DNA of 62,159 nt from Patescibacteria group bacterium (GCA_018813025.1 JAHJCL010000037.1:1-62159), one strand, 5' to 3'. Shown: positions 2,861-57,944, counted from the first letter of the stretch. Made by a program: numbers and translations. The notes: a model not told the origin generated them from the sequence alone.

Positions 2861-2867
2861 AATCTCA

Positions 2868-5354
2868 ATGTCATTTTTAGATAAAATTTTTGGCGATGCT
2901 AATGAAAAGTATCTTAAAAAGCTTCAGCCATTCGTTGAAAAAATCAATCAACTCGAAAAAGAGTTTGAATCTTTTTCTGATGAAAATTTAAAATTAAAAA
3001 CAGGGGAATTTAAAGAAAAATTAAAGAACGGAGAAACCTTGGAAGATGTTTTACCTGAATCTTTTGCTTTAGCGAGAGAAGCGTCTAAAAGAACTTTAGG
3101 TCAAAGACCTTATGATTCCCAGTTAATTGGAGGAATTGTTTTAGCTCAAGGCAAGATTGCTGAAATGAAAACTGGTGAAGGAAAAACATTAGCAGCAGTT
3201 ATGCCTATGTACCTAAATGCTCTAATCGGTCAAGGATGTCATTTAGTTACAGTTAATGATTATTTAGCCAGAAGAGATGCGGTTTGGATGGGCCAGATTT
3301 ATTATGCGTTAGGATTAAGTATTGGTTGTTTAAATCATGAGCAATCGTTTTTATATAATCCAAACTATAAAAAACTGGAAGAAGAAAAAGAAAAGATGAG
3401 AGATGAATTAGGAGCTTTTTATATTGTTGAAGATTTTTTAGAACCATGCTCAAGAAAAGATGCTTATTTAGCTGATGTAACTTATGGAACCAATAATGAG
3501 TTTGGTTTTGATTATTTAAGAGACAATATGGCTTATAATTTAAACCAAAAATCCCAAAGGGGTTTTAATTTTTGTATTGTTGATGAAATCGATTCTATTT
3601 TGATTGATGAAGCCAGAACTCCATTGATTATTTCTGCACCAGACCAGGAGGGATCAAAGTGGTATCAGGAATTTGCTCGAATTATTCCCCAAATAGATAA
3701 AGAAGGGGATTATGAGATTGATGAAAAAATGAAATCTGTTTCTTTAACCGAAAAAGGAGTTGAAAAAATCGAAAAGATTTTGGGGCTAGAAAATATTTAT
3801 GAAGACAAGGGAATTAAATATCTTCACTATTTAGAGCAAGCATTAAGAGCTCAGGCGATTAATCCATCTACCGGTCGTCCTTTTTTTGCAAAAGATTACG
3901 AGTATGTGGTTAAAGATAATAAAGTAATAATAGTTGATGAATTTACCGGACGATTAATGCCTGGTAGACGTTGGTCTAAAGGATTGCATCAGGCGGTTGA
4001 GGCCAAAGAAGGCGTACCGGTTAAAGAAGAATCACTTACTCTGGCTTCAATTACTTTCCAAAACTATTTCCGTCTTTATAAAAAATTGGCGGGTATGACT
4101 GGTACAGCTGTCACCTCTGCTGAAGAGTTTGATAAGGTTTATAAATTAGACGTCATTGTTATACCAACAAACAAACCCTTAGTTAGAAAATCATTACCGG
4201 ATAGAGTTTATAAAAATGAACCCGGAAAACTTAAGGCCTTAGTCAAAGAAATAAAAGAGAGAAATGATTTAGGCCAGCCACTTCTAATTGGAACTCGTTC
4301 AGTAGAAAAAAATGAAGAGATTTCCCAGCTTTTAAAATTAGAAGGAGTTAAGCATCAGGTTTTAAATGCTAAAAATCATCAAACTGAAGGAGAAACAATT
4401 GCTCAAGCCGGTAAATTGAAAGCAGTGACGGTAGCCACTAATATGGCCGGCCGTGGAGTTGATATTATTTTAGGCGGTAATCCGTCGAGCCCCGAGGAGG
4501 CTCAAAAAGTTAAGGAATTAGGAGGATTACATGTTATTGGAACTGAAAGACACGAAGCCCGAAGAATAGATGATCAACTGAGAGGAAGAACTGGCAGACA
4601 AGGTGATTCCGGATCTTCTCAATTTTTCCTTTCTTTAGAAGATGATCTAATGAGGATTTTTGGAGGTGATAGAGTGCAATCTTTAATGTCAGCTTTAAAT
4701 CTGCCTGATGATGAGCCAATTGAGGCCAATCTTATTTCTAGAATGGTTGAATCCGCCCAATCTAAAATAGAAGGATTTAATTTTGATTCAAGACAAAGAT
4801 TATTGGAGTATGATGATGTTTTAAATAAACACCGAGAAGTTATTTATAAAAAGAGAAGAGAAGTATTAGAAAAATACCAAGACATGGATTTTAAAAATCA
4901 GATTTTAGAAATGATTGAAAAAGCCGGATACACCCAGGATGATTACAAGAGAAAACAACAGGAAGTGGGAGAGAATAATATGCCTCAAATTCAAAAAGAA
5001 ATTGTCTTAAAGGTTATAGATACTCTTTGGATAGAACATCTGGAAAATATGGATCATTTAATAGGTTCGGTTAGATTAAGAGCTTACGGTAACCTTGACC
5101 CATTAGTAGAATACAAAAAAGAAGGACACGGGATGTTTCGTAAACTATTAGAAGCGATTGATGAATATGTTGCCAATACTATTATGAAGATTACTATCCG
5201 GAAACAACCTTCTAAAAATGTTTTTCCAGCAACTGTTTTATCAAGTGGTAATCCCGTCAATTCTCAAAAGACGAAAAGAAATGAGCCCTGTCCTTGCGGA
5301 GCAAAACATCCCGATGGCCGTCCGATAAAATACAAACACTGCCACGGGAAGTAA
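2868..5354 (+). CDS. secA: preprotein translocase ATPase SecA
   Basis: 828 aa. Motifs MKTGEGKTL, IVDEIDSILIDEARTPLIIS, TNMAGRGVDI, RGRTGRQGDSGSS. C-terminal Cys/His tail CPCGAKHPDGRPIKYKHCHGK. Confidence 0.95.
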   Translation: MSFLDKIFGDANEKYLKKLQPFVEKINQLEKEFESFSDENLKLKTGEFKEKLKNGETLEDVLPESFALAREASKRTLGQRPYDSQLIGGIVLAQGKIAEMKTGEGKTLAAVMPMYLNALIGQGCHLVTVNDYLARRDAVWMGQIYYALGLSIGCLNHEQSFLYNPNYKKLEEEKEKMRDELGAFYIVEDFLEPCSRKDAYLADVTYGTNNEFGFDYLRDNMAYNLNQKSQRGFNFCIVDEIDSILIDEARTPLIISAPDQEGSKWYQEFARIIPQIDKEGDYEIDEKMKSVSLTEKGVEKIEKILGLENIYEDKGIKYLHYLEQALRAQAINPSTGRPFFAKDYEYVVKDNKVIIVDEFTGRLMPGRRWSKGLHQAVEAKEGVPVKEESLTLASITFQNYFRLYKKLAGMTGTAVTSAEEFDKVYKLDVIVIPTNKPLVRKSLPDRVYKNEPGKLKALVKEIKERNDLGQPLLIGTRSVEKNEEISQLLKLEGVKHQVLNAKNHQTEGETIAQAGKLKAVTVATNMAGRGVDIILGGNPSSPEEAQKVKELGGLHVIGTERHEARRIDDQLRGRTGRQGDSGSSQFFLSLEDDLMRIFGGDRVQSLMSALNLPDDEPIEANLISRMVESAQSKIEGFNFDSRQRLLEYDDVLNKHREVIYKKRREVLEKYQDMDFKNQILEMIEKAGYTQDDYKRKQQEVGENNMPQIQKEIVLKVIDTLWIEHLENMDHLIGSVRLRAYGNLDPLVEYKKEGHGMFRKLLEAIDEYVANTIMKITIRKQPSKNVFPATVLSSGNPVNSQKTKRNEPCPCGAKHPDGRPIKYKHCHGK

Positions 5355-7212: not shown

Positions 7213-8550
7213 ATGTTGGAAAAACTAAAAATCAATAAAAAGAAAATCAGTTGGGGAATATTCATTTTTTTAATTTTGTCTTTAGTAGCTAGTGGTTTAT
7301 TATGGCCAACACAAATCAATGATAAAATTGATTTTTTAAAGGAAAAAATTAATCCTTATGTTAATAAAATTTCTCTATCTAATTTATATGATATTTATCA
7401 GAAGCCGTTTAAATTGGGCTGGGATTTTATCGGTGGTAGGCGTTTGATTTATCAGCCGGTTTTAGAGGATCCGGAACAACAGGTACCGGACGAGGCTTTA
7501 ATTGGAATTCAAAAAATAATTGAGCAGAGATTTGCTATATATGAGCAAAAAGCTCAAGTAAAAATAGATAAGAAAAATGTCGTGATTGAAGTTGGAGATA
7601 AAGAAGATATTGAGATGATAACCGAAATTATGAATCAGGAATTCTCGCTTGAATTCAGAGAAGAAGCTGAAAGCGAACTTTTTCAACCAACTGATTTAAC
7701 CGGAAAATATTTAGAGGCAGTTTCTTTTAGTATAGACCAAACAGACCAAAAACCTTTGATTTTACTTCGTTTTAATGAAGAAGGGGCAAAGATTCTTGAG
7801 GAATTAACTAGGAGGAATGAGGGCAAAAGATTAGGCGTATATGTTGATGGAGTTCCAGTATTTCCTTTACAAATCACAGAAGCGGTTTCCGGTGGAAGCG
7901 TTCAAATAAAAATGGACGCTCAAATAGATTCAGTTAAAGTTTTGACCCAAATGATGGGCGCCTCCTCCTTATCTCCATCTTTAAAAATGGTTTCGGAAAA
8001 GACTAGAACGAACCAGGAAGCCCAAGTATTAATAAGAAATATTGTCAAAGGATTTCTTTTTGGACTTCTGGCCATCTTTTGGTTGATGGTTATAATTTAT
8101 AAATTAACCGGATTGATATCATTTATTTTGGTCTTAATTTATACCTTGCTCTTTTTATTATTTTTTAAACTTTATCCGATAACTGTAGATTTTGGTTCAA
8201 TTTCAGGATTATTATTTTCTTTAATAATTATTCTAATAAGTTTGGGCTTAATTTCGAAAAGTTTTAAAAAGGAAATAAGAAAAGGTAAAAGTTACGGTAT
8301 AGCAGTTGAAGAAACACTTGCGACTTATAAGCAAATTATTGAGAAAATTAATTTTATCGCTCTGGCCTTACTCTTGATATTCTTCTTTGTCGCCAAGATA
8401 TTTTTAGTTGAAAGTATTTTTATTAACAACTTCGTTTCAATTGCCTTTTTAGGAATAATGGTTAATTTTATTTTCTTAGTTTTAGCGCTAAAGAAAATAT
8501 TACTGATGCTGGAAAATCCATTAGGCAAAATGAATTACCTCTGGAAATAG
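7213..8550 (+). CDS. SecD-like protein-export membrane protein
   Basis: N-terminal TM helix. Periplasmic-type domain with SecD-like blocks (LGWDFIGGRRLIY, LEFREE, LGVYVDGVPVFPLQI...SGGSVQI). C-terminal multi-TM bundle. No adjacent secF. Confidence 0.55.
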   Translation: MLEKLKINKKKISWGIFIFLILSLVASGLLWPTQINDKIDFLKEKINPYVNKISLSNLYDIYQKPFKLGWDFIGGRRLIYQPVLEDPEQQVPDEALIGIQKIIEQRFAIYEQKAQVKIDKKNVVIEVGDKEDIEMITEIMNQEFSLEFREEAESELFQPTDLTGKYLEAVSFSIDQTDQKPLILLRFNEEGAKILEELTRRNEGKRLGVYVDGVPVFPLQITEAVSGGSVQIKMDAQIDSVKVLTQMMGASSLSPSLKMVSEKTRTNQEAQVLIRNIVKGFLFGLLAIFWLMVIIYKLTGLISFILVLIYTLLFLLFFKLYPITVDFGSISGLLFSLIIILISLGLISKSFKKEIRKGKSYGIAVEETLATYKQIIEKINFIALALLLIFFFVAKIFLVESIFINNFVSIAFLGIMVNFIFLVLALKKILLMLENPLGKMNYLWK

Positions 8551-8619: not shown

Positions 8620-9612
8620 ATGTCAATTAATTATCAAAAAATTTGTGCCGGTCTTCTTAAAGACTTTTCCCAAAGAACCAAAGACGTTATTGTTAGGCGT
8701 TTTGGCTTGGAAGTTGGAACTAAAGAAACATTAGAATCCATCGGTGCCGACTATGGCGTTACCAGAGAAAGAATTCGTCAGATTGAATCTGACGGTATTG
8801 TTGATATAAAAGCAAGAATTAAAAAAGAAAAAGATAGTTCTGTCTATCAAGCTTTTGGATATATTAAAGAATATCTTACTAATTCCGGTGGATTAAAAAA
8901 AGAAGAAATTTTACTTGATCAATCAAGCGAAGGGAAATTCACTCACCAGATTGCTTTCTTATTAAATTTATCAGATGATTTTAAAAGATTCTCCGAAACC
9001 GAAAATACTTATTCTTTTTGGACAATTAGTTCTGATTCCTGGGCCTCAGCTAAAAATGCAATAGAAAGTGCTTATAAAATGTTCACCAATAAAAAACAGT
9101 CTCTTAGTCTGAAAGAATGTAGTGATATTCTTAATATTAAACCCGAAATATTACTCTCTTATATTGAAATTTCCAAGAAAATTAGCCAAGGAAGTGATGG
9201 CAGATTTGGTTTGGAAGATTGGCCTGAAATTAATCCTCGAGTAATGAAAGACAAGGCATTTTTAGTTTTTCAAAAACAAAATAGACCTTTGCATTTCAGT
9301 CAAGTGGCTGAATTAATCGGCACAAACGCCTTAGTCCAAACTGTTCATAATGAACTGATTCGCGACCAAAGATTTGTTTTGGTAGGCCGAGGAATTTATG
9401 CTTTGGCTGATTGGGGATATAAGCCGGGAACCGTCAAAGAAGTTATTTCCGATATTTTAGCGCAATCCAGCAATCCTCTTTCTAAAGATGAAATTTTGAA
9501 AAAAGTTTCAGAACAGCGCATTGTCAAGACTAACACAGTCTTATTAAATTTAAGCAACAAACAACGTTTTTTAAGAAATTCACAAGGAAAATATCTTTTA
9601 AGAGATGCTTAA
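8620..9612 (+). CDS. sigma-70 region-4-like HTH protein with C-terminal winged-helix-like repeats
   Basis: RRFGL...ETLESIGADYGVTRERIRQIESDGI matches the sigma70 region 4 HTH pattern. Two later segments (PLHFSQVAELI...RFVLVGRGIYAL and PLSKDEILKKV...RFLRNSQGKYLL) look like HARE-HTH/winged-helix units. Confidence 0.55.
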   Translation: MSINYQKICAGLLKDFSQRTKDVIVRRFGLEVGTKETLESIGADYGVTRERIRQIESDGIVDIKARIKKEKDSSVYQAFGYIKEYLTNSGGLKKEEILLDQSSEGKFTHQIAFLLNLSDDFKRFSETENTYSFWTISSDSWASAKNAIESAYKMFTNKKQSLSLKECSDILNIKPEILLSYIEISKKISQGSDGRFGLEDWPEINPRVMKDKAFLVFQKQNRPLHFSQVAELIGTNALVQTVHNELIRDQRFVLVGRGIYALADWGYKPGTVKEVISDILAQSSNPLSKDEILKKVSEQRIVKTNTVLLNLSNKQRFLRNSQGKYLLRDA

Positions 9613-9856
9613 AATTCTTAATCAAGGAGTAGGTATTATTATTACATCAGCCATATTGTTTTTTTTGGCATTATGGTATTTTTGCATTGGCTGGGCTAAT
9701 GTTCATGGTAAAAAATCTCTGATTATCGGTTTTTTTGTGAGCAGTATATATACTTTTAGATTTTTAGTCAGAACTTTTTTAATTATTCTTCTTTTTTCTA
9801 TAATCTGGCAGCTTGGAGAATACTTTTTGCCTTCAATTAGCATTCCTCGCCTTTGA
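9605..9856 (+). CDS. small membrane protein (2-3 TM)
   Basis: 83 aa, almost entirely hydrophobic helices. Overlaps the upstream gene by 8 nt. Confidence 0.5.
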   Translation: MLKILNQGVGIIITSAILFFLALWYFCIGWANVHGKKSLIIGFFVSSIYTFRFLVRTFLIILLFSIIWQLGEYFLPSISIPRL

Positions 9857-9877
9857 GGTGTGTGATATACTAAAAGT

Positions 9878-11263
9878 ATGATTTTTGAAACTACCTACAT
9901 ATATTTTCAAAAGTGGGGATTGGTTTCGGCAATAGAACTCTTGCTAAATACCTGGGGATGGATTCTTCCACCGATTTTTTTCTTTTTAACTTTTAGATAT
10001 CTTTATAAATGGTGGATTAATTGGGAAGTGCGTTATCAGCAAAATGAATGGGTTTTATTAAGAATTATTCCGCCTAAAGAAGTTAAAAATACATTTAAGG
10101 CTATGCAAGATGTTTATAACATTCTTTTTGGAATTCGCGATGGTCCCAATTGGAGAGAGCAGTGGTGCGAGGGAATATTGCCTGTCGGTCCGTGGTTGTC
10201 TTGGGAAATAACCTGTATTGGAGGAAAAATAGCTTTTTATGTCAAATGTTTAGCACCCATAAGAGGTTTAATTGAAGATGCTCTTTATTCTCATTTTCCT
10301 GAAATAGAAATTCAATTAGCCGAAGATTATACTCAGAAAGTTCCTCAAGATGTTCCCAACAAAGATTGGGATATTTATACTGAAGACTATACTGTTCTTT
10401 GGGATCAGGCTTTGCCAATCAAAACCTATCCGTTTTTTGACGAGAGGCCGGAATCTCCTCAAACTGAAGATGTCAGAATAGACCCCTTAGATTCCATGTT
10501 AGAAGCAATGGCGAGAATGAATCCGGCTGAACAGCTTTGGTTTCAAATGGTAATAGTGCCGGTTTTACCAGGAGACACTCGCTTTGATTGTTTTGCTGAA
10601 GGAAAAGCTCTAATTAATAAAATAGCTCAAAGATCTTCAGAAAATGGTAATGGCGGTTTTTCAGTCCTAAAATCAATTATCAATTTTTTCTTATGGGGAG
10701 ACGTCGAAACGCCAAAAGAGGAGAAGCCGGCCGATATTTTATCAGCTCCGGAGTTAAGGTTGGTTTCAGGAGAAAGAGACAAAATTAAAGCAATAGAGAA
10801 CAAAATATCACAGCCAGGATTTAAGACCTGGATGAGAATTGTCTATTTATATAAAAGGAATGAACCTTATTTTAAAGGAAACTATAAGATTATCAGGACT
10901 TACTTCAATCATTTTATCCACTCTGATTGGAATGGTCCTGTTTTTTGGGGACCAACCAGATCCAGAATTCATTATTGGTTTGTTGACCGCAGATTGTATT
11001 TAAGAAAGAGAAAGAATTTCCGTAATTACATTTCTCGTCTTCCTTCTTTATTCCCAAGGACAATGGACGGAGAACCAATGTTTGAAAAGGGAATTGTTTC
11101 CCGAGTTCCGGGATTAAGAGGCACTGTGGTTTTGTGCAGTGAAGAATTGGCAACTATTTATCATTTCCCATACAAGATTTCATCTGTTATTGCTCCAGCA
11201 ATTTTGCCGATTGAAGCTAAAAAAGCCGGTCCTCCGGTTGGGCTGCCGACAGAAGAAAACTAA
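9878..11263 (+). CDS. membrane-anchored protein of unknown function, candidate partner of the downstream ATPase
   Basis: 461 aa. N-terminal hydrophobic hairpin (LVSAIELLLNTWGWILPPIFFFLTF), then a large soluble Trp/Arg-rich domain. No motif I can name. A 15-nt gap separates it from the ATPase gene. Confidence 0.55.
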   Translation: MIFETTYIYFQKWGLVSAIELLLNTWGWILPPIFFFLTFRYLYKWWINWEVRYQQNEWVLLRIIPPKEVKNTFKAMQDVYNILFGIRDGPNWREQWCEGILPVGPWLSWEITCIGGKIAFYVKCLAPIRGLIEDALYSHFPEIEIQLAEDYTQKVPQDVPNKDWDIYTEDYTVLWDQALPIKTYPFFDERPESPQTEDVRIDPLDSMLEAMARMNPAEQLWFQMVIVPVLPGDTRFDCFAEGKALINKIAQRSSENGNGGFSVLKSIINFFLWGDVETPKEEKPADILSAPELRLVSGERDKIKAIENKISQPGFKTWMRIVYLYKRNEPYFKGNYKIIRTYFNHFIHSDWNGPVFWGPTRSRIHYWFVDRRLYLRKRKNFRNYISRLPSLFPRTMDGEPMFEKGIVSRVPGLRGTVVLCSEELATIYHFPYKISSVIAPAILPIEAKKAGPPVGLPTEEN

Positions 11264-11278
11264 TAATTATTTTTTATA

Positions 11279-12937
11279 ATGGACATTTCAGATATTAATT
11301 TTTTTGGCGAAACAACCTTTCGCAATCAACAAAAGAAATTCGGCATTAAAACCGACGATCGGCGCCGTCATGTTTATGTGATTGGAAAAACAGGTATGGG
11401 TAAAACAGCTTTATTGGAAAATATGGCTATTCAGGATATTCAATCCGGCAAAGGTGTTGCTTTTATTGATCCTCACGGCGAAGCGGCTGAAAATTTATTA
11501 AATTTTATTCCTTCAGAAAGAGTTAATGATGTTGTTTATTTTAATCCATCTGACTTAGATTTTCCAATAGGATTTAATATTATGGAAAGAATCGACGCTG
11601 ATCAAAGGCATTTGATTACTTCTGGGTTAATGGGTGTTTTTAAGAAAATATGGCCTGACGTTTGGTCAGCCAGAATGGAATACATTTTAAGCAATTCCAT
11701 TTTAGCTTTATTGGAATATCCTGGCTCAACTCTTTTAAGCGTTAATAGAATGCTATCTGATCCGGATTTTCGTAAAAAAGTGGTTGATAAAGTCAGCGAT
11801 CCGATTGTCAAATCATTTTGGACTAAAGAATTCTCCCGCTATACTCAACGTTACGAAACCGAAGCAACCGCGGCTGTCCAAAACAAGGTTGGTCAATTTA
11901 TTTCCAATCCTCTAATGAGAAATATTATTGGCCAGACTCAATCCAGTATTAATATGCGCCGGATAATGGATGATGGTAAAATCTTAATACTTAATCTTTC
12001 TAAAGGAAAAATCGGCGAAGATAATTCGCTTTTATTAGGAGCTCTTTTAATTACTAAACTGCAATTAGCAGCCATGTCCAGAGTTGATACTCCTGAAGCA
12101 AAAAGAAAAGATTTTTTTCTATATGTTGATGAATTCCAAAATTTTGCTACAGAAGCATTTGTTAATATTCTTTCCGAAGCCAGAAAATATAGACTATCTT
12201 TAATTCTTGGTCATCAGTATATTGCTCAAATGGACGAAACAGTCAGAGATGCCGTCTTCGGAAATGTTGGTACACTGGTTACTTTTAGAGTCGGAGCAGA
12301 AGACGCTGATTATTTGGAAAAAGAATTTTCCCCGGAAATTTTTGCTACTGATTTTGTTAATCTGGCTAAATACAATGTTTATCTAAAATTAATGATTGAC
12401 GGTATTTCTTCCCGTCCTTTTTCAGCCCAAACATTAATCCCTTTCAAGACGCCTAAAGATTCCAATAAAGAAAAAATAATTAAAGTCTCGCGGGAAAGAT
12501 ACGGTACCCCTAAAGCTAATATTGAAGAAAAAATTATTTCCTGGATTGAGGAAATAAAAGAAACGCCGACAATTAAAAAAGAACAGCAATCTACAAATTC
12601 TTCAACTGTTCTTTATGATGCTCAGTGCTCTTTGTGCGGAAAATGGACTAAGGTTGTTTTTCCTCCTGACGGAACCAGACCGGTTTATTGCAAGCCTTGC
12701 TTAAAGAAAACCAGAGAAGCTAAAGAAGTCAAAGAAGCTCAAGAAAGGCAATCAGCTAGAGAGGTTAAAAAAGAGCCGATTATTGCTTCTTTAAAAGATA
12801 ATTGTCAGAATTCGGTTCCATTTTCTTTGTCGAAAAAAGAAGTGCCTTTGGAAAAGAAAAAAATAGAAAGAAAACAGGTTAATTTAAGTGAGTTGAAAAG
12901 TATTTTACAGGAATCTTTAAAGAATTTAAAAAAGTAA
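11279..12937 (+). CDS. VirD4/TraD/TraG-like (HerA-FtsK clade) P-loop ATPase with C-terminal CxxC-x17-CxxC zinc ribbon
   Basis: Walker A VIGKTGMGKT and Walker B FFLYVDEFQNF. No N-terminal TM helices. CSLCGKWTKVVFPPDGTRPVYCKPC at nt 12626..12700, followed by a K/E-rich tail. Confidence 0.7.
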   Translation: MDISDINFFGETTFRNQQKKFGIKTDDRRRHVYVIGKTGMGKTALLENMAIQDIQSGKGVAFIDPHGEAAENLLNFIPSERVNDVVYFNPSDLDFPIGFNIMERIDADQRHLITSGLMGVFKKIWPDVWSARMEYILSNSILALLEYPGSTLLSVNRMLSDPDFRKKVVDKVSDPIVKSFWTKEFSRYTQRYETEATAAVQNKVGQFISNPLMRNIIGQTQSSINMRRIMDDGKILILNLSKGKIGEDNSLLLGALLITKLQLAAMSRVDTPEAKRKDFFLYVDEFQNFATEAFVNILSEARKYRLSLILGHQYIAQMDETVRDAVFGNVGTLVTFRVGAEDADYLEKEFSPEIFATDFVNLAKYNVYLKLMIDGISSRPFSAQTLIPFKTPKDSNKEKIIKVSRERYGTPKANIEEKIISWIEEIKETPTIKKEQQSTNSSTVLYDAQCSLCGKWTKVVFPPDGTRPVYCKPCLKKTREAKEVKEAQERQSAREVKKEPIIASLKDNCQNSVPFSLSKKEVPLEKKKIERKQVNLSELKSILQESLKNLKK

Positions 12938-29431: not shown

Positions 29432-30079
29432 ATGACTTTAGATTTAGAAAAACTTAACAAAGAGCAAAAAGAAGCGGTTATGCACGGAGATGGTCCGCTT
29501 TTAATTGTGGCTGGAGCTGGAACCGGAAAAACAACGGTTATTACCCAAAGGATTGTTTATTTAATTGAAAAAGAAAAAGCCACAACAGAAGAAATTTTAG
29601 CTGTTACCTTTACTGAGAAAGCAGCTGAAGAAATGGAAGAAAGAATTGATAAACTTTTATCCTACGGCTATGTTGATTTATGGGTTTCAACTTTTCATTC
29701 TTTTTGCGAAAGAGTGTTAAGGGACCATGCTTTAGACATCGGTCTTCCGGCTGATTTTAAAATTTTAGACCAGACAGCCAGTTGGCTTTTAATACGCCAA
29801 AATTTAGACAAATTTAATCTTAATTATTATAAACCGTTAGGTAATCCGACTAAGTTTATTCAGGCTTTGATTTCTCATTTTTCTCATTGCAAAGACCAGG
29901 AAGTTTATCCGGAACGTTATTTGGAATATGCTGACAAATTAAAGACCAATTTAAGCGATTTACCCGAAAATCAGGAATCAGAAAGATTAAAAGAAGTTGC
30001 CAATGCTTATCATATTTATCAAAATCTGCTTTTAGAAAACAGCTCTTTAGATTTTGGCGATTTAATAACTATTGTTTAA
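29432..30079 (+). CDS. UvrD/PcrA-like helicase, N-terminal fragment (frame broken near 30067)
   Basis: LNKEQKEAV, Walker A AGAGTGKT, TFHSFC. Ends ...LDFGDLITIV*, but the helicase continues in the -1 frame. Confidence 0.85.
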   Translation: MTLDLEKLNKEQKEAVMHGDGPLLIVAGAGTGKTTVITQRIVYLIEKEKATTEEILAVTFTEKAAEEMEERIDKLLSYGYVDLWVSTFHSFCERVLRDHALDIGLPADFKILDQTASWLLIRQNLDKFNLNYYKPLGNPTKFIQALISHFSHCKDQEVYPERYLEYADKLKTNLSDLPENQESERLKEVANAYHIYQNLLLENSSLDFGDLITIV

Positions 30080-30099
30080 AGTTATTTAAGCAAAGACCG

Positions 30100-33000
30100 T
30101 TGATTTTAAAAAAATACCAAGAAAAATTTAAATATATTTTAGTTGATGAATTTCAAGATACCAATTGGGCCCAATATGAACTAATAAAGGTTTTAGCGCA
30201 GCCGAATAATAATCTGACTGTCTGCGCTGACGATGATCAATGTTTGCCGGGTAATTCCGAAATAGAGGTTTTTGAAAAAGGGAAGATAATAAACAAGAAG
30301 ATAAAAAACATTAAAATTGGTAGTGATGTATTGACAGCAATTGGAAAGGGTCATGTAGGGGTTGCGAAAGTAAAAAATGTTTTTATCAGAAACAAGGAGG
30401 CAAAAATATTAACTGTTAAAACAGAAAATGGTTATTCGGTAAGCGTGACAGATAATCATAAAATGTTTTGTTGCGTTCCAAGAACTGCTCAACAAGGTTA
30501 TCATTATGTTTATTTAATGTTTAGAAAGAATTTGGGGTGGAGAATAGGGGTAACCGATGATTTAATTCTGCGGCTTAGATTAGAACGTTCAGCAGATAAG
30601 ATTTTAGCGATAAGAGCTTTTAATAGCGATTCTGAAGCCAGATATCATGAAACATTATGGTCATTGAAGTATGGAATACCTACAAGCTGCTTTAAGAGCA
30701 GAGAAAATATTGTGATTAAAGAAGATGTATTGGTTAAATTATATAAAGAAATTGATGTTGAAAATAATATACAGAGATTAGCTCAAGATTTAAATATTGA
30801 GATAGACTCGCCCCATTATTGCCTAGATGCTGTTAATCGTGGAAGAAGCGTTAGGATAATTATCAATTTACAAATGTGTTATAGGAATTATCGAAGCAAA
30901 GACCATGTTAGAAGCGGTAAAACTTTACTTCTGAATGGCTTAATAAGACATAGGCTTTATTTAGAAACATCAGATAAGCAAATTATTAAGAAGCTGGAAA
31001 CAGCAGGATATATTCTTCATAAAGCGAAGAAGGGAATGAAATTAAACATAGAGGGAGATAATATAAAATATCTTGAAGAAAAGGCAAGAGTAATAGAAAA
31101 AATTACAGGCGGATTTATAGAATATAAATTTAATGTTGCAAGTAAGTATAGTAAGGCTTCAAACAATACGCGAAATTATATGTCTTTGATTATGCCTGCA
31201 AAAAATTTAGTTTTAGGGCATTATCTTCCAGTAAAAAAAGGCGCCGAAATAATTTACGATAAAATAATTTCAATCAAAGAAGTTGATAAAAAAATAAAAG
31301 TATATGATTTGGAAATTAATAGAACACATAATTTTATAGCTAACGGAATAGTGGTCCACAATTCTATCTATAGGTGGAGAGGAGCATCTTATAGCAATAT
31401 TATTCAATTTAAAAAAGATTTTCCTGATGCCAAACAAGTGTCATTGGTAAGAAATTATCGTTCTACTCAAAATATTTTGGATTTATCCTATAAATTTATA
31501 AAAGCCAATGATCCTGACCGTTTGGAATATATTAATAAAATTAATAAAAAGCTTATTGCTGAAACCAAAGAACAAGGAATCGTTGAACACATTCACGCTA
31601 AAACTATAGATGAAGAGGTTTTAAAAACAATTAATAAAATTTTAGAAATTCTTAAAAAAGATAAAGAAGCCAGTTATAACGATTTTGTTATTTTAGTTAG
31701 AGCCAATGACGCAGCTAATGCTTTTACTAGGGCGTTAGAAAGGGCTGGGCTTCCTCATCAGTTTTTAGCTTCAAGGGGGCTTTATTCAAAACCAATTATT
31801 TTAAATATCATCGCCTATTTTAATCTTCTGGATAATTATCATGAAAGCCCGGCGGTTTATAGAATTTTAAATCTGCCGTTTTTGGAAATTTTATATGAAG
31901 ATATAGTTAAGCTCACCCAATACAGTCATTACAAAACTAAGTCTCTTTATGAAGCCATAGGAGAGATTTCTTTGATTTCGGGAATTTCTTTAAAAACCCA
32001 AGAGAAAATAACTTTTATAATGAGCTTAATTCAAAAGCATAGCGCTATGGCTCGTGGGAAAGCAGTGTCAGAAATTCTAGTTGCCTTTTTGGAGGATTCC
32101 GGCTATTTAAAATATTTGACTGACAAAGAAGACAAGGAGCAAATTGATCTACTTAATCAGTTTTATAAAAGAATTAAAGCCTTTGAAGAAACAACGATTG
32201 AGCCGACTTTAAGAAATTTTATGGAAGAAATAAATTTTGAATTAGAATCTGGTGAACAAGGAAAACTTGAATTTGACCCGGAACAGGGACCAGACATGAT
32301 TAAAGTTATGACGATTCATGGAGCTAAGGGTTTGGAGTTTAAATATGTTTTTTTAGCAAATATGGTTGATAAAAGATTTCATACTATTGAAAGAAAAGAT
32401 TTGATTGAATTACCCGATGAATTGATAAAAGACATTAAACCAACCGGCGATATTCATTTACAGGAAGAAAGAAGAATTTGCTATTTGGCTATGACTAGAG
32501 CAAAAAAAGAACTTTATTTCACGTCAGCTCAAGATTACGGCGGACTTAGAAAAAAGAGAATATCCCGTTTTTTAATTGAAATGGGTTATGTTGATACCGC
32601 ACAATATGGAATTAAGGAAAAAGGAGTATTGGCTAAGAATAATTCTTCAGAAAAATTAAAATCCAAAATAGATATAGGTCATTTACCAAATCATTTTTCC
32701 TTTTCCCAATTAGCGGCTTTTTCCAAATGTCCGCTTCAATATAAGTTCGGGTTTATTCTAAAAGTTCCAATCAGAGGGAAAGCTGTTTTCTCTTTTGGAA
32801 AAACAATGCACGCTACTTTACAGGATTTTTTAAAGCAAGTTAATGAAGAAGGTAAAACTAAACAGAGCGATTTGTTTGGCTTTCAAAATAAGAAAAAATT
32901 ATCATCTGTAAAAACTCCGGAAGGGCTTGCTAGTTTCGACAATTTAATTGAAATTTATGAGAAGAATTGGATTGACGAGTGGTATGAAAGTAAAAAACAA

Positions 33001-33492
33001 AAAGAAGAATACTATAAATTAGGCAAAAGAATTATTAAAGATTTTTATGCCGAATTTCTAAAGAATCCGCCCAAAATTTTAAAGATTAATAATGTTTTAG
33101 CTTTAGAAATGCCATTTAATTTGAAAATCGGCGATTATACCTTATTCGGAGTTATTGACAGGATCGATGATTTAAAAGACGGAGTGGCAATTATTGATTA
33201 CAAAACAGGAAAAACGAAAGATAAATTAGAAGTGAGTGACAAAGATCAATTATTAATTTATCAAATAGCTGCTGAAGAAGTTTTGAAAATCAAGCCTAAA
33301 GAATTGAGTTATTATTATTTGGAAAATGGACATAGAGCCACTTTTTTAGGAGATGAGAAAGAAAAAACTCAACAGAAAGAAAAAATAATCAAAGAAATCG
33401 AAGAAATAAAAAAGAGTAATTTTAAAGCAACTCCGGGTTGGCAATGTTCTTATTGTGATTTTAAAGATATTTGTGATTCTGCTCAAAGATAA
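30100..33492 (+). CDS. UvrD/PcrA-like helicase with C-terminal PD-(D/E)xK, Cas4/AddB-like Fe-S nuclease domain; contains an intein
   Basis: [11 protein letters not shown], DDDQ|intein|[27 protein letters not shown]. Nuclease: FSKCPL..., DRID...IIDYKTGK, and [10 protein letters not shown]. This reading frame is already open from about 30001, and the sensible junction with the upstream fragment is at 30067. Confidence 0.85.
   Translation: [1130 protein letters not shown]
30241..31362 (+). mobile_element. intein (374 aa) inserted in helicase motif III
   Basis: Starts Cys ([10 protein letters not shown], block A). Contains TDNHKMF (block B, TxxH). Ends [21 protein letters not shown], followed by Ser+1 (SIYRWRGA). 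Removing it restores ...[15 protein letters not shown]. Confidence 0.85.
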
Positions 33493-56046: not shown

Positions 56047-56915
56047 ACTATTTTTTTTGAGAGTTTGATCCTAGCTCAGGATGAACGCTGGCGGTGTGGA
56101 TAAGGCATGCAAGTCAAACGGTCCTTCGCTTCACACTATGTGTGAAGCCACGGAACTGCAGGCAGTCTTAATTAGATTTAAGATAGTTTGTTATTCCAGA
56201 GCTTCGTGCTTAGCGCGAAGCGTAGGATAGTGGCGAACGGGTTAGTAACACGTAGATAACGAACCCCAAAGACGGGCATAACTCCGCGAAAGCGGAGCTA
56301 ATTCCCGATAATCCCTGAGGATTTAAGTCCGAAGGGTAAAGGAAGCTTTGCAACTACTTTGGGATCGGTCTGCGCCCCATCAGTTTGTTGGTAAGGTAAC
56401 GGCTTACCAAGACTATGACGGGTAGGGGGTGTGAGAGCATATTCCCCAACACTAGCACTGATACACGGGCTAGACTCCTACGGGAGGCAGCAGTCGAGAA
56501 TATTGAACAATGGGCGAAAGCCTGATTCAGCGACACCGCGTGCTTGAAGAAGCCCTTCGGGGTGTAAAGAGCTTTTCTAGAGGAAGAATTCCGCTTTTAG
56601 CGGAATGACGGTACTTTAGGAATAAGAGGAGGCTAATCACGTGCCAGCAGCAGCGGTAATACGTGATCCTCGAGCGTTATCCGGATTCATTGGGCGTAAA
56701 GGGTCTGTAGGTGGACTGGAAGGTCTCGTGTTAAAGTCCTCGAGCTTAACTTGAGGAATGCATTAGAAACCACCAGACTAGAGGGCGCTATGGGTTAATA
56801 GAACGGTCGGTGTAGGGGTGAAATCCGTTGATATCGACCGGAATACCAAAAGCGAAGGCATTTAACTGGGGCGACCCTGACACTGAGAGACGAAAGCTAG
56901 GGCAGAAAAAAGGAT

Positions 56916-57811
56916 TGACATGGGTACCAAACTTTTAGTAAAGTTTATTAAAGTTTGAGTTAGTCCTCTTTGATAGTAATGTCAGAAGAACAACTTGGCT
57001 ATATCGGTGAAAATCCATTTAATATGGGAAACACCGAGGGAAGTTAAAGGAAATTTGTATTTGTTTTTAGGCAAATGAATATAAAACATCGAGAGATTAA
57101 AAAAGATTTTTATCTTTCTAAAAGACAAAAAGAAATTCTTGTAGGAATTATTTTGGGGGATGGAAATTTAACTAAACACGGCAAGTATTTTCGACTATTT
57201 GTTAAACACGCAGCAACGCAAGTTGCTTTAGCAAAATGGAAAAGAAAAGAATTTAACAGCATCACCAAAATGGACCTGAATTTTTTTAAGCAGCAAGTTA
57301 AGGGAAAGACATACAGTTTTTGTCAGTTTATAACACTGACCCATCTTGAATTTGATGCTTACAGAAAGATGTTTTATAAAAAGAAAAAGAAAATTGTTCC
57401 TGTGAATATTAACAAAGTTTTGAATAGCGCATTATCTTTAGCGGTATGGATTATGGATGATGGTGCAAAAGATAATGCAGGAATGACTATTCAAACTCAC
57501 AGTTTTTCTTCGAAAGAAGTTAAGAGATTGCAAAATTGCTTTAAAAAGAATTTTAAAATCTTAGTTAGTATTAGAAGGAATAAGGGAAAAGATATTCTTT
57601 ATATACCAAAAGATCAAGTTCAAAATTTATATCAGCTTGTAAGAGAATATTTATTGCCTGAATATAAATACAAATTTCCTTTAACCCCGTAGAGACTACA
57701 CGCCGAGCTCCCGCATTTTGCGGGATGATGATATAGTCCGAACTTATCAGTAATGATAAGAACTAGGTAGAAATATCCTAGTCATTACCAAAAGGTAATA
57801 GTAACAAAATG
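56916..57811 (+). mobile_element. group I intron in 16S rRNA (E. coli position about 788), boundaries +/- a few nt
   Basis: The exon sequence GGAT|TAGATACCC is split by about 896 nt. The insert follows a U and ends in G. It contains GATATAGTC, which resembles the J8/7-P7 core as I recall it from the Tetrahymena intron, and it carries a LAGLIDADG ORF. Confidence 0.75.
57075..57692 (+). CDS. double-motif LAGLIDADG homing endonuclease (intron-encoded)
   Basis: LVGIILGDGNL (motif 1) and LAVWIMDDGAK (motif 2) lie about 100 aa apart. 205 aa. Confidence 0.85.
   Translation: MNIKHREIKKDFYLSKRQKEILVGIILGDGNLTKHGKYFRLFVKHAATQVALAKWKRKEFNSITKMDLNFFKQQVKGKTYSFCQFITLTHLEFDAYRKMFYKKKKKIVPVNINKVLNSALSLAVWIMDDGAKDNAGMTIQTHSFSSKEVKRLQNCFKKNFKILVSIRRNKGKDILYIPKDQVQNLYQLVREYLLPEYKYKFPLTP

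Positions 57812-57912: not shown

Positions 57913-57944
<32 letters not shown>

What the first reader, a model, noticed from the sequence alone, without database searches (positions are those of the whole stretch)
9605..12937. Orphan membrane-partner plus VirD4/TraD-like ATPase cassette with a CxxC-x17-CxxC zinc ribbon: candidate undescribed translocation system
Three tightly packed + strand genes follow the HTH protein at 8620, with an 8-nt overlap and then gaps of 21 and 15 nt, so they look co-transcribed.
- 9605..9856 encodes an 83-aa protein with 2-3 TM helices.
- 9878..11263 encodes a 461-aa protein with an N-terminal hydrophobic hairpin and no motif I can name.
- 11279..12937 encodes a 552-aa P-loop ATPase with Walker A VIGKTGMGKT and Walker B FFLYVDEFQNF.

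The ATPase looks like a TraD/TraG/VirD4 coupling protein (HerA-FtsK clade). It lacks the N-terminal TM helices that normally anchor such proteins, so the anchor may be supplied in trans by the two upstream membrane proteins.

Its tail carries CSLCGKWTKVVFPPDGTRPVYCKPC (nt 12626..12700), exactly CxxC-x17-CxxC, followed by a K/E-rich segment.

No relaxase, VirB4, VirB6, pilin, integrase or other conjugation or phage gene is recognisable in the 62 kb. The flanks are housekeeping (a secD-like gene and pgk).

Small TM proteins plus one hexameric-type translocase ATPase recalls the archaeal Ced DNA-import system. This is an analogy only. For an episymbiotic, auxotrophic CPR cell, a dedicated DNA, nucleotide or protein import/export motor would be biologically important.
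Basis: partly seen in the sequence, partly recalled or inferred. Interest (0 to 1): 0.7.

Follow-up and report, generated by a model that had tools for sequence, protein, structure and literature searches.

The report
Split coupling-protein motor of Patescibacteria
Two adjacent genes encode the two halves of a conjugation-type "coupling protein" ATPase, kept on the chromosome beside a DNA/RNA-binding protein in at least 518 species of ultrasmall Patescibacteria, which makes it a candidate for the missing substrate-feeding motor of their secretion machinery.

Summary
Every sequence fact in the finding checks out: ORF coordinates, spacing, Walker motifs, CxxC-x17-CxxC at 12626-12700, and no T4SS genes in 62 kb. 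The cassette is not an orphan, though.

- **ATPase:** it has over 8000 Patescibacteria homologues. It belongs to the VirD4-like "T4CP" genes already counted in 2,918 of 3,035 Patescibacteria genomes, mostly far from virB4.
- **461-aa protein:** this is Pfam DUF8128, and it is the ATPase's own detached N-terminal half. The two are one polypeptide in Bacillus phages (phage G gp156, SPO1 gp27.4; phrog_5156) and on an actinobacterial plasmid. A Bacillus plasmid carries the same split pair in the coupling-protein slot, beside a Replic_Relax relaxase, TcpC and VirB4. The DUF8128 fold resembles the VirB4 N-terminal domain.
- **Linkage:** across 80 species loci, DUF8128→ATPase adjacency holds in 69 of 73 informative loci. 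A σ-region-4 plus four-winged-helix protein sits upstream in 70 of 74.
- **83-aa membrane ORF:** real, but confined to about 15 loci.
- **Zinc ribbon:** present in 49 of 73 ATPase ORFs.

Best reading: a split, membrane-anchored coupling-protein-type motor with a nucleic-acid-binding partner, probably serving the separately encoded Patescibacteria T4SS. An autonomous translocase is not excluded. It is a new variant of a known kind.

The parts
8620..9612 (+). 330-aa nucleic-acid-binding protein with an N-terminal sigma-70 region-4 HTH followed by about four tandem winged-helix units, one of them HARE-HTH. It has no catalytic domain and is the conserved upstream member of the module.
   Evidence: Pfam Sigma70_r4 1.6e-11 and HARE-HTH 5e-8. 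AF2 model pLDDT 91. Foldseek matches sigmaA region 4 (40-46% identity, rmsd about 1 A) and the SelB C-terminal WH1-4 (E=1e-5). Over 6,785 homologues. Lies within 900 nt upstream of DUF8128 in 70 of 74 informative loci. No relation to Replic_Relax relaxases.
9605..9856 (+). 83-aa small membrane protein with two strong TM segments. A lineage-specific accessory gene.
   Evidence: Hydropathy. A positional homologue of 69-83 aa with 2-3 TM segments is present between the HTH gene and DUF8128 in about 15 of 80 loci, and absent where the genes abut. The alignment shows an invariant Trp and a 'VS..Y[ST]F' motif. No Pfam, NCBIfam, PHROG or PADLOC hit.
9878..11263 (+). 461-aa DUF8128 (PF26449) protein: the detached N-terminal module of the motor, made of a membrane anchor plus a cytoplasmic alpha/beta domain with a VirB4-N-terminal-domain-like fold.
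   Evidence: 61% identical to PF26449-annotated proteins. 2,471 clusters at 50% identity in 1.84 billion proteins. Matches phrog_5156 profile positions 21-284. hhalign to the phage G gp156 N-half gives 92.8-93.8%. Foldseek gives gp156 2.4e-15 and gp155 1.8e-6, and TrwK/VirB4 2.8e-4 at prob 0.99. A Bacillus plasmid 272-aa homologue scores 96.1%.
9917..10024 (+). Trp-rich hydrophobic N-terminal segment of DUF8128 (aa 14-49), the presumed membrane anchor.
   Evidence: Consensus WWWFFLPxIL...YxWWIRWEVWY is conserved in 30 homologues. Maximum KD 1.52. AF2 models one long helix at aa 15-55. A weak hhalign match to TrwM/VirB3 over the TM region (prob 27%) may be compositional.
11279..12937 (+). 552-aa coupling-protein-type P-loop ATPase (HerA-FtsK superfamily, TrwB/VirD4-like) without a TM domain. 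This is the motor half.
   Evidence: Pfam TrwB_AAD_bind 3.5e-9, T4SS-DNA_transf 1.5e-6, TraG-D_C 8e-6 and DUF87 5e-5. TrwB BLASTP 5e-9 aligns aa 26-320 to TrwB 119-392. Matches phrog_5156 positions 394-821 at 3.7e-63. Over 8000 homologues at about 66-89% identity. Median 63.5% identity across 73 species loci.
11384..11407 (+). Walker A motif, GKTGMGKT.
   Evidence: Regex on the translation.
12113..12133 (+). Walker B motif, FFLYVDE.
   Evidence: Regex on the translation. Aligns with the TrwB Walker B region.
12626..12700 (+). CxxC-x17-CxxC treble-clef zinc ribbon.
   Evidence: PF23477 1.7e-10 and TIGR04272 1e-10. Present in 49 of 73 ATPase ORFs in relatives. Members of this domain family bind zinc experimentally (PMC12704099).
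12701..12934 (+). K/E-rich C-terminal tail, probably disordered or coiled. A candidate docking or nucleic-acid-contact segment.
   Evidence: Sequence. No family assignment. The function is inferred only.

Best explanation
Genes 9878-11263 and 11279-12937 encode the two halves of one coupling-protein-type (VirD4/TrwB-like) membrane motor.

The DUF8128 protein supplies a Trp-rich membrane anchor and a cytoplasmic alpha/beta domain whose fold resembles the N-terminal domain of VirB4. The 552-aa protein supplies an intact P-loop motor, followed by a zinc-binding CxxC-x17-CxxC ribbon and a K/E-rich tail.

In Bacillus phages and on an actinobacterial plasmid the two halves are a single polypeptide of 810-910 aa. 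On Bacillus (and probably haloarchaeal) plasmids they form the same split pair. In those elements the unit occupies the coupling-protein position, next to a Replic_Relax relaxase and VirB4, TcpC (VirB8-like) and VirB3-like genes.

In Patescibacteria the pair has become a chromosomal core module that appears vertically inherited and has no relaxase. It is almost always preceded by a non-enzymatic nucleic-acid-binding protein (sigma region 4 plus four winged helices). In the window's sub-lineage a small 2-TM protein is also present.

Proposed mechanism:
1. DUF8128 tethers and organises a ring of the ATPase at the cytoplasmic membrane.
2. The HTH protein and the zinc-ribbon tail engage a nucleic-acid or nucleoprotein substrate.
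3. ATP hydrolysis delivers the substrate to a membrane channel. The most likely channel is the separately encoded T4SS of Patescibacteria, which derives from monoderm conjugation machinery and whose gene clusters lack a coupling protein.

Shown here: the homologies, the split/fusion relationship and the conserved linkage. Inferred: ring formation, the DUF8128-ATPase contact, the substrate, the partnership with the T4SS and the involvement of the HTH protein.
For: **ATPase identity.** Pfam T4CP families score above their gathering thresholds. TrwB BLASTP gives 5e-9, while TrwK/VirB4 is not significant. PDB sequence hits are TrwB and DotL.

**Two halves of one protein.**
- phrog_5156 (824 profile positions) is matched by DUF8128 at 21-284 and by the ATPase at 394-821.
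- Phage G gp156 (825 aa), SPO1 gp27.4 (906 aa) and CP-51 gp91 (911 aa) carry the ATPase match from about aa 380-420.
- Their N-halves match the DUF8128 profile: hhalign 92.8-93.8% for gp156, and hmmsearch 3e-11, 6e-7 and 6e-5.
- Foldseek gives gp156 2.4e-15 and phage JL 1.3e-14.

**Conjugation context outside Patescibacteria.**
- B. subtilis plasmid CP121709.1 carries, in order, a DUF8128-like 272-aa protein (hhalign 96.1%), the ATPase, Replic_Relax, TcpC and VirB4/AAA_10.
- The Embleya plasmid carries PrgI, an ATP-binding protein, a fused 812-aa protein with an N-terminal TM segment, and Replic_Relax.
- SPO1 and 0305phi8-36 have a 'DNA translocation operon' (PMC3357382).

**VirB4-N-terminal-like fold.** The only two PDB Foldseek matches at E<=0.001 are TrwK/VirB4, and six more VirB4 chains follow. 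No ATPase-domain-only structure appears among the hits. The fold also matches phage G gp155, a VirB4-type ATPase (Pfam).

**Linkage.** At least 518 GTDB species encode a relative. DUF8128->ATPase is adjacent on the same strand in 69 of 73 informative loci, and the HTH gene is upstream in 70 of 74. The downstream PGK block is lost in 28 of 59 loci, yet the ATPase stays about 63% identical. No other family recurs except SecDF.

**Fit with the literature.** Patescibacteria T4SS clusters lack recognisable coupling proteins (PMC10633639). VirD4-like genes are nearly universal but unlinked to virB4 (PMC12102498).
Against: - VirD4-like genes are more widespread than VirB4 (2,918 against 2,417 of 3,035 genomes), and only 148 of 5,713 lie near virB4.
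- The t4cp homologue of S. epibionticum was not essential although its T4SS is (PMC12102498). I did not test whether that gene belongs to this DUF8128-linked family.
- No T4SS gene lies in the 62-kb window or recurs in the 80 loci.
- The ATPase is conserved at housekeeping level: median 63.5% identity, against 46% for PGK. It sits among Sec, glycolysis and division genes, which suits an autonomous core function as well.
- The DUF8128-VirB4 relationship is at fold level only. TMq is 0.33 and rmsd 8-10 A, and there is no profile-sequence support against TrwK, TrsE, TrsD or gp155.
- The DUF8128 hydrophobic segment is just below the classical TM threshold, and the phage fusions lack an N-terminal TM segment.
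- Four of 73 informative loci lack the adjacent ATPase.
- A 53%-identical ATPase stands alone on another contig.
- The zinc ribbon is missing from about a third of orthologues.
- The HTH protein's sigma-region-4 domain could mean it is simply an RNA-polymerase-associated factor kept nearby by synteny.
Confidence: 0.55

Rival explanations
1. The module is an autonomous housekeeping DNA translocase, independent of any T4SS. A membrane-anchored ring, directed by the sequence-reading HTH/winged-helix protein, pumps chromosomal DNA during division or repair, playing an FtsK/SpoIIIE-like role with the anchor, the motor and the DNA-recognition module on separate polypeptides.
For: - The ATPase is more conserved than PGK or DHH and comparable to SecA.
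- Its neighbours are always core genes: SecA/SecDF, PGK, MurJ, LepA, DivIC, and FtsZ elsewhere in the window.
- VirD4-like genes occur in more genomes than VirB4 and are unlinked to it.
- The partner has a sigma-4 domain plus winged helices, comparable in principle to the FtsK gamma winged helix (the comparison rests on general knowledge).
Against: - There is no Pfam FtsK_SpoIIIE hit. All family matches are to coupling proteins.
- Every non-Patescibacteria relative examined lies in a conjugation or mobilisation-type module with a relaxase.
- FtsK is mentioned for Saccharibacteria in transcriptome papers, so at least some Patescibacteria keep a canonical FtsK.
- No localisation or phenotype data exist.
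Confidence: 0.2
2. The module is a nucleic-acid import motor. It pulls host-derived DNA or RNA into the auxotrophic cell, alone or through the T4SS-like pilus channel. This would be analogous to CedD in the archaeal Ced DNA-import system.
For: - CedD is a VirD4-like ATPase shown to be essential for DNA import, and some orthologues lack a TM domain (PMC11823120).
- A cultivated Patescibacterium takes up host RNA by an unresolved route, and tubular T4SS-like structures are present (bioRxiv 10.64898/2026.06.21.733656).
- The partner's winged-helix array resembles the SelB domains that bind an RNA hairpin.
- A zinc ribbon and a basic/acidic tail sit on the motor.
Against: - The CedD model matches only the P-loop region, at 33.5 bits against a cut-off of 600.
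- No CedA/CedB-like, ComEC or nuclease genes are linked.
- The direction of transport cannot be read from sequence.
- Deleting comEC is not lethal in S. epibionticum. That argues against DNA uptake through ComEC being essential, but says nothing on this motor.
Confidence: 0.15
3. The cassette is a remnant of an integrated conjugative element or prophage, with no function for the cell itself.
For: The closest non-Patescibacteria relatives are on plasmids and phages. The ATPase also hits the PADLOC mad8 model at 2.8e-15.
Against: - G+C in the region (0.31-0.37) is within the window's range of 0.31-0.40.
- No integrase, relaxase, repeats or phage genes are present.
- The chromosomal position is the same across at least 80 species, with identity falling in step with neighbouring core genes.
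- Purifying selection on the ATPase is strong.
- No other MADS or defence genes are adjacent.
Confidence: 0.03
4. Only DUF8128 and the ATPase work together. The HTH protein is a general RNA-polymerase-associated or transcription factor, and the 83-aa protein is an unrelated small membrane protein. Both are neighbours by conserved gene order alone.
For: - The N-terminal domain is 40-46% identical to primary-sigma region 4, which binds the -35 element and the beta flap. A HARE-HTH domain also occurs in RNA polymerase delta.
- The whole region is one long same-strand array with extensive synteny.
- The 83-aa ORF is present in only about 15 of 80 loci.
- In L014, L023 and L027 other genes are inserted between the HTH gene and DUF8128.
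Against: - HTH adjacency (70 of 74) persists where SecD upstream and PGK downstream are no longer detected.
- The genes often abut or overlap.
- In plasmid Dtr operons, a DNA-binding accessory gene typically precedes the coupling-protein gene (general knowledge; trwA-trwB order in R388).
Confidence: 0.3

Closest known systems
Type IV coupling proteins (VirD4 / TrwB / TraD / TraG; Pfam TrwB_AAD_bind, T4SS-DNA_transf, TraG-D_C)
   Same: P-loop motor of the same family, with scores above the gathering thresholds. It aligns to TrwB 119-392, including the Walker A and B motifs.
   Different: - There is no N-terminal TM domain in the same polypeptide. A separately encoded module of about 400 aa (DUF8128) takes its place.
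- It has a C-terminal zinc ribbon.
- It is chromosomal, appears vertically inherited, and has no relaxase or T4SS genes nearby.
Phage 'coupling ATPase' of the proposed DNA translocation operon: 0305phi8-36 orf201, SPO1 gp27.4, CP-51 gp91, phage G gp156 (phrog_5156)
   Same: Both halves are homologous and collinear. DUF8128 corresponds to the N-half and the window ATPase to the C-half.
   Different: - The phage proteins are single polypeptides without an N-terminal TM segment or a zinc ribbon.
- They sit next to a Replic_Relax relaxase and an actin-like partition gene.
- The operon was dispensable in the laboratory and its function is untested (PMC3357382).
Gram-positive and actinobacterial conjugation modules with a Replic_Relax relaxase (B. 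subtilis plasmid CP121709.1; Embleya plasmid NZ_CP108778.1)
   Same: The same two-part motor is present. The Bacillus plasmid has the split form: a 272-aa DUF8128-like protein plus a 412-aa ATPase. The Embleya plasmid has an 812-aa fusion with an N-terminal TM segment.
   Different: Those modules include a relaxase, TcpC (VirB8-like), VirB3-like and VirB4 genes. The window has none of these and has the sigma-4/winged-helix protein instead.
VirB4 (TrwK) with VirB3, and the TrsD-TrsE arrangement of pSK41/pGO1
   Same: - Overall architecture of an N-terminal alpha/beta domain plus a TrwB-like motor.
- The DUF8128 fold matches full-length TrwK structures and phage G gp155.
- TrsD-TrsE is a precedent for a separately encoded protein, related to the VirB4 N-terminal portion, next to its ATPase.
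   Different: - There is no sequence-profile similarity to TrwK, TrsE or TrsD.
- By sequence the motor half is T4CP-like, not VirB4-like, and there is no AAA_10 or CagE_TrbE_VirB hit.
Archaeal Ced DNA-import system (CedA/A1/A2/CedB/CedD)
   Same: It also combines small TM proteins with HerA-FtsK-type ATPases. CedD is VirD4-like, and some orthologues lack a TM domain.
   Different: The CedD model is matched only at the P-loop (33.5 bits against 600). There are no CedA or CedB equivalents. The resemblance is an analogy of parts, not membership.

Membership tests
Type IV coupling protein (VirD4/TrwB/TraD/TraG) | TrwB-type P-loop nucleotide-binding domain with Walker A and B motifs | tested here: met
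   Pfam TrwB_AAD_bind 36.5 bits (GA 20.5), T4SS-DNA_transf 27.8 (GA 20.1) and TraG-D_C 26.2 (GA 22). BLASTP to TrwB 5e-9. Motifs.
Type IV coupling protein (VirD4/TrwB/TraD/TraG) | N-terminal transmembrane domain in the same polypeptide | tested here: not met
   No hydrophobic segment reaches KD 1.6 in the 552-aa protein. The alignment starts at TrwB residue 119. The anchor is presumably supplied by DUF8128.
Type IV coupling protein (VirD4/TrwB/TraD/TraG) | All-alpha domain inserted in the NBD | tested here: inconclusive
   The low-identity alignment runs through the corresponding TrwB region, and the Pfam TrwB_AAD_bind match spans aa 25-338. No structure of the ATPase was predicted.
Type IV coupling protein (VirD4/TrwB/TraD/TraG) | Genetic association with a relaxase and/or a VirB4-containing T4SS | tested here: not met
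   None in the 62-kb window and none recurrent in 80 loci. The whole genome could not be inspected.
Type IV coupling protein (VirD4/TrwB/TraD/TraG) | Hexameric ring and substrate-coupling activity | not testable with these tools
   Needs multimer modelling or biochemistry.
phrog_5156 / SPO1 gp27.4-type phage ATPase | DUF8128-like N-half followed by a T4CP-like ATPase C-half | tested here: met
   Profile positions 21-284 (1.4e-5) and 394-821 (3.7e-63) are matched by the two window proteins in order. hhalign and Foldseek agree.
phrog_5156 / SPO1 gp27.4-type phage ATPase | Single polypeptide, adjacent to a Replic_Relax relaxase | tested here: not met
   Two genes separated by 15 nt. The upstream HTH protein is unrelated to Replic_Relax.
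VirB4 | VirB4 N-terminal domain (Pfam CagE_TrbE_VirB) plus an AAA_10-type C-terminal ATPase | tested here: not met
   No such Pfam hits for the ATPase or for any of 30 DUF8128 members. BLASTP and hhalign to TrwK are not significant. Only a fold-level resemblance of DUF8128 to TrwK was found.
DUF8128 (Pfam PF26449) | Full-length homology to family members | tested here: met
   The window protein is 56-63% identical over 95-100% of its length to proteins carrying the precomputed PF26449 hit. The model itself is absent from the local Pfam copy, and no hit is on record for the window protein itself.
CxxC-x17-CxxC domain (TIGR04272 / PF23477 zf_Tbcl_2) | Four Cys with the family spacing and a profile match above the cut-off | tested here: met
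   TIGR04272 41.2 bits (cut-off 36) and PF23477 40.8 bits (GA 27) at aa 445-479. Zinc binding has been shown for other members only.
Ced system ATPase CedD | NCBIfam NF053655 equivalog score | tested here: not met
   33.5 bits against a cut-off of 600. The match is limited to aa 9-81.
FtsK/SpoIIIE | FtsK_SpoIIIE motor domain and gamma winged helix in one protein | tested here: not met
   No FtsK_SpoIIIE hit at E<=0.1 in Pfam or NCBIfam.

The most novel reading that the evidence does not exclude
The HTH-DUF8128-ATPase trio is the long-sought nucleic-acid feeding motor of Patescibacteria. In this reading it is a membrane-anchored, coupling-protein-derived ring that, guided by the winged-helix protein and the zinc-ribbon tail, pulls host-derived RNA or DNA into the cell. 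It would do so through the relaxase-less T4SS or on its own, running a conjugation-type motor in the import direction, as CedD does in archaea.
Probability: 0.15. Interest if true: 0.9.

Novelty: new variant of a known kind. Interest (0 to 1): 0.55.

Why it matters
Patescibacteria depend on host cells. Their T4SS is essential in the one species tested, yet its gene clusters lack a coupling protein and a relaxase. What it transports, and how substrates are selected, is not known. How these cells take up host nucleic acid is explicitly unresolved.

This module supplies three concrete, testable candidates:
- a motor, the ATPase;
- its membrane-organising half, DUF8128, which until now was a domain of unknown function;
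- a nucleic-acid-binding partner.

The analysis also proposes a function for a Pfam DUF with about 2,500 sequence clusters. It links that DUF to the uncharacterised N-terminal halves of phage and Gram-positive plasmid "coupling ATPases". And it suggests that a VirB4-like N-domain is shared more widely among T4SS ATPases than sequence comparison shows.

Tried and rejected
- **Sequence-level link between DUF8128 and VirB4:** not found. Tried an hmmsearch of the DUF8128 profile against all PDB sequences (0 hits at E<=10). Also tried hhalign against TrwK, TrsE, TrsD, TrsK, TrwB and gp155, and a Pfam scan of 30 members at E<=10.
- **VirB3 match:** only a weak match over the TM region to TrwM/VirB3 (prob 27%). 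I treat it as possibly compositional.
- **DUF8128 against annotated phages by tblastn:** no match. Profile methods were needed.
- **IMG/VR scans:** gave one unfused, unlinked ATPase (L091) and one trivial hit.
- **HTH protein as a degenerate relaxase:** rejected by hhalign against three Replic_Relax proteins and by its fold.
- **Defence-system reading:** PADLOC gives mad8 2.8e-15 for the ATPase and MzaA for the HTH protein. Rejected because these are generic P-loop and sigma-region-4 similarities, no other system genes are present, and the context is housekeeping.
- **Terminase reading (phrog_2666, 4.6e-11):** rejected as P-loop-only similarity.
- **Mobile-element remnant:** rejected on composition and synteny.
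- **Promoter and terminator scans:** uninformative.
- **Whole-genome T4SS inventory of this MAG:** could not be done, because only the 62-kb window and ±10-kb loci are reachable.

Full report
**1. Observation**

The 8-nt overlap and the 21- and 15-nt gaps are correct, and pgk starts 13 nt after the ATPase stop. Walker A (GKTGMGKT, aa 36-43), Walker B (FFLYVDE, aa 279-285) and the CxxC-x17-CxxC at nt 12626-12700 are all present.

The 83-aa product has two strongly hydrophobic segments, and the ATPase has none. The 461-aa protein has a Trp-rich hydrophobic N-terminus that peaks at KD 1.52. AlphaFold models that stretch as one long helix, aa 15-55.

The window is a Patescibacteria (CPR) contig, JAHJGP010000023.1 of GCA_018824385.1. 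It carries an intron-bearing 16S rRNA and RNase P RNA. The rest encodes housekeeping functions only: SecA, a SecD-like protein, PGK, MurJ, LepA, FtsZ, FtsX, glycolysis enzymes and ribosomal proteins. There is no relaxase, VirB4, VirB6, pilin, integrase or phage gene. G+C is unremarkable.

**2. The ATPase**

It scores above the Pfam gathering thresholds for the coupling-protein families TrwB_AAD_bind, T4SS-DNA_transf and TraG-D_C, and for DUF87. It aligns to TrwB residues 119-392 (BLASTP 5e-9) but not significantly to TrwK/VirB4. So it is T4CP-like and lacks roughly the first 95 residues of TrwB, which include the TM domain.

The CxxC-x17-CxxC is a catalogued domain (PF23477, TIGR04272), and archaeal members bind zinc (PMC12704099).

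The family is very large. More than 8000 homologues were found, and the top 120 are 66-100% identical. Wherever a source gives a name, they are Patescibacteria proteins called [quoted passage not shown] or "CxxC-x17-CxxC domain-containing protein".

The literature already records 5,713 VirD4-like T4CP homologues in 2,918 of 3,035 Patescibacteria genomes. Only 148 lie near virB4, and the authors remark that the gene may have been exapted for other functions (PMC12102498). VirB4 itself occurs in 2,417 of those genomes. The ATPase is therefore not an orphan.

**3. The 461-aa protein**

It has no hit in the local Pfam or NCBIfam libraries. Its homologues, however, carry the precomputed label PF26449 = DUF8128. 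A profile search of 1.84 billion representative proteins finds 2,471 clusters. No paper mentions DUF8128.

The important result came from PHROGs. One 824-position family, phrog_5156, is matched by DUF8128 over positions 21-284 and by the ATPase over positions 394-821. The members I examined are long single proteins of Bacillus phages: phage G gp156 (825 aa), SPO1 gp27.4 (906 aa) and CP-51 gp91 (911 aa). In each, the ATPase match begins around residue 380-420.

Their N-terminal halves are homologous to DUF8128:
- hhalign gives 92.8-93.8% for gp156;
- hmmsearch gives 3e-11, 6e-7 and 6e-5 for gp156, gp27.4 and gp91;
- structurally, the DUF8128 model (pLDDT 75, pTM 0.73) matches gp156 at E=2.4e-15 and phage JL's homologue at 1.3e-14.

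The two window genes are therefore the two halves of one protein. The split falls about 35 residues before Walker A.

**4. The fold of DUF8128**

Against the PDB, only two matches reach E<=0.001. Both are full-length TrwK/VirB4 of R388 (prob 0.99), and six more VirB4 chains follow. No ATPase-domain-only structure (TrwB, VirB4 C-terminal domain, FtsK, HerA) appears, which points to the VirB4 N-terminal domain.

Among predicted viral structures the model also matches phage G gp155 (E=1.8e-6). That protein is a VirB4-type ATPase whose P-loop_TraG and AAA_10 domains start near residue 330.

TM-scores are modest (about 0.3), and no sequence-profile method supports the link. I hold this as a fold-level inference with moderate confidence. 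TrsD-TrsE in pSK41 is a precedent for a separately encoded protein, related to the VirB4 N-terminal portion, next to its ATPase.

**5. Context outside Patescibacteria**

The ATPase has homologues on 380 plasmids, from Streptomyces, Bacillus, Staphylococcus, Clostridium, haloarchaea and Sulfolobus.

- **B. subtilis plasmid CP121709.1.** A 272-aa DUF8128-like protein (hhalign 96.1%, E=3.4e-9) directly precedes a 412-aa ATPase. A Replic_Relax relaxase, TcpC (VirB8-like) and a VirB4/AAA_10 ATPase follow.
- **Embleya plasmid.** An 812-aa fusion has an N-terminal TM segment, weak collinear DUF8128 matches and the ATPase (E=4e-63). It lies between PrgI and ATP-binding-protein genes and a Replic_Relax relaxase.
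- **Natrinema plasmid.** A 395-aa protein with weak collinear DUF8128 matches precedes the ATPase gene.
- **SPO1.** The fusion lies between an actin-like partition gene plus small hydrophobic proteins and a Replic_Relax gene.

Pathria et al. 2012 called the 0305phi8-36/SPO1 set a "DNA translocation operon". They named the ATPase a coupling protein whose N-terminal domain was of unknown nature, and the operon was dispensable in the laboratory (PMC3357382). So the ancestral setting of this two-part motor is the coupling-protein slot of monoderm, archaeal and phage DNA-transfer modules.

**6. Linkage in Patescibacteria**

A scan of GTDB species genomes found at least 518 species with a DUF8128 relative, and I analysed the best 80 loci (27-65% identity).

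- The ATPase follows DUF8128 on the same strand in 69 of 73 informative loci. The exceptions are L015, L017, L065 and L085.
- The 330-aa HTH gene lies within 900 nt upstream in 70 of 74 informative loci.
- The downstream PGK-DHH-RNaseH block is present in only 31 of 59 loci, so the trio outlasts its surroundings.
- Unbiased clustering of all ORFs finds no other recurrent family except SecD/F (56 loci) and assorted core genes. No VirB6-like, relaxase or nuclease family recurs.
- The ATPase is strikingly conserved: median 63.5% identity, against 32.7% for DUF8128, 39% for the HTH protein, 46% for PGK and 61% for SecA.
- The zinc ribbon occurs in 49 of 73 ATPase ORFs.
- The 83-aa ORF has positional homologues of 69-83 aa with 2-3 TM segments in about 15 loci. 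They share an invariant Trp and a 'VS..Y[ST]F' motif, so the gene is real but lineage-specific.
- A 53%-identical ATPase without a zinc ribbon stands alone on another contig. That fits the roughly two T4CP-like genes per genome reported in the literature.

**7. The HTH protein**

The model is high-confidence (pLDDT 91). It shows a sigma region-4 domain, 40-46% identical to primary-sigma region 4 with an rmsd of about 1 A. About four winged helices follow, resembling the SelB C-terminal array. No catalytic fold is present, and the protein is unrelated to Replic_Relax. The family has more than 6,785 homologues.

It could be a substrate or DNA adaptor for the motor, much as accessory DNA-binding proteins precede coupling-protein genes in Dtr operons. 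It could equally be an RNA-polymerase-associated factor kept nearby by synteny. I cannot separate these two readings.

**8. Mechanism and rivals**

Best-supported reading: a split, membrane-anchored coupling-protein-type motor. DUF8128 provides the anchor and a VirB4-N-terminal-like organiser, and the 552-aa protein provides the P-loop motor with its zinc-ribbon tail. A nucleic-acid-binding partner accompanies them.

The motor most probably serves the separately encoded Patescibacteria T4SS. That T4SS derives from monoderm conjugation machinery, and its clusters lack coupling and relaxase proteins (PMC12102498; PMC10633639).

Several points count against the T4SS link:
- the gene is more widespread than virB4 and unlinked to it;
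- a t4cp homologue was dispensable in S. epibionticum, although I did not verify that it belongs to this family;
- the conservation and the gene context look like those of a housekeeping gene.

The rivals are an autonomous FtsK-like DNA translocase, a nucleic-acid import motor, and the view that only DUF8128 and the ATPase are functionally linked. The import reading draws on CedD (PMC11823120) and on host-RNA uptake, whose route is unresolved. A mobile-element remnant is essentially excluded.

**9. Novelty**

Already known:
- the ATPase family, catalogued as T4CP homologues;
- DUF8128, as a DUF;
- the zinc-ribbon domain;
- the phage "coupling ATPase".

As far as the searched literature shows, these points are new:
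- DUF8128 is the detached N-terminal half of this motor;
- its fold is VirB4-N-terminal-like;
- the same two-part unit fills the coupling-protein slot in Bacillus, actinobacterial and haloarchaeal plasmids and in phages;
- in Patescibacteria it forms a conserved chromosomal trio with a sigma-4/winged-helix protein.

This is a new variant of a known kind.

Noticed in passing
window 56053-58541 (16S rRNA); ORF 57075-57692: The 16S rRNA gene spans 2,489 nt, so it carries an insertion of about 950 nt. The insertion encodes a LAGLIDADG_2 homing endonuclease (Pfam 4.7e-37). An intron-bearing 16S is typical of CPR bacteria.
   Followed up: partly
window ~29432-33492: The UvrD/PcrA-like helicase-nuclease gene is annotated as one 1,353-aa product in the MAG. 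It carries Hint and Intein_splicing domains, so it contains an intein.
   Followed up: no
window 58851-62159 (runs off the end): A very large ORF of at least 1,103 aa (1,567 aa in the MAG annotation). It has an N-terminal HTH_17 domain and PT repeats and is otherwise unannotated.
   Followed up: no
window 7213-8550: The SecD-like gene has only a SecDF_P1_head hit, and no separate SecF gene follows. Relatives (L003, L005, L007) have SecD plus SecF before the HTH gene.
   Followed up: no
L091 5956-7704 (IMGVR_UViG_3300009666_001272): A 53%-identical ATPase without a zinc ribbon stands alone. It follows an unidentified 469-aa ORF and a hydrophobic 325-aa ORF, with no DUF8128 or HTH gene. This probably represents the second T4CP-like paralogue class of Patescibacteria.
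   Followed up: partly
L093 1196-2845 (Bacillus phage G gp155) and 2861-5338 (gp156): Phage G encodes a VirB4-type ATPase (gp155) and a T4CP-type ATPase (gp156) side by side, each preceded by a DUF8128-like fold. That amounts to a minimal pair of conjugation ATPases in a jumbo phage.
   Followed up: partly
L097 5983-7170 (Sulfitobacter mediterraneus plasmid NZ_CP081110.1): The closest non-Patescibacteria homologue of the ATPase (40% identity, 2e-91) is a stand-alone 395-aa gene on an alphaproteobacterial plasmid, among transposases and a recombinase. This may reflect horizontal transfer.
   Followed up: no
L026 7287-9770: The ATPase ORF reads in frame into PGK (827 aa, no zinc ribbon). This is either a gene fusion or an assembly or frameshift artefact.
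   Followed up: no
L015, L017, L065, L085 (GTDB loci): DUF8128 is not followed by the ATPase. In L015 PGK follows it directly. It is unknown whether the ATPase lies elsewhere in these genomes.
   Followed up: partly
L054, L057, L058, L078, L082 record titles: Contigs with the typical Patescibacteria HTH-DUF8128-ATPase block are deposited under the names Bdellovibrionales, Pacearchaeota or Bathyarchaeia. Many others are titled 'uncultured Candidatus Saccharibacteria'. These are probably mis-binned or mislabelled MAG contigs.
   Followed up: no
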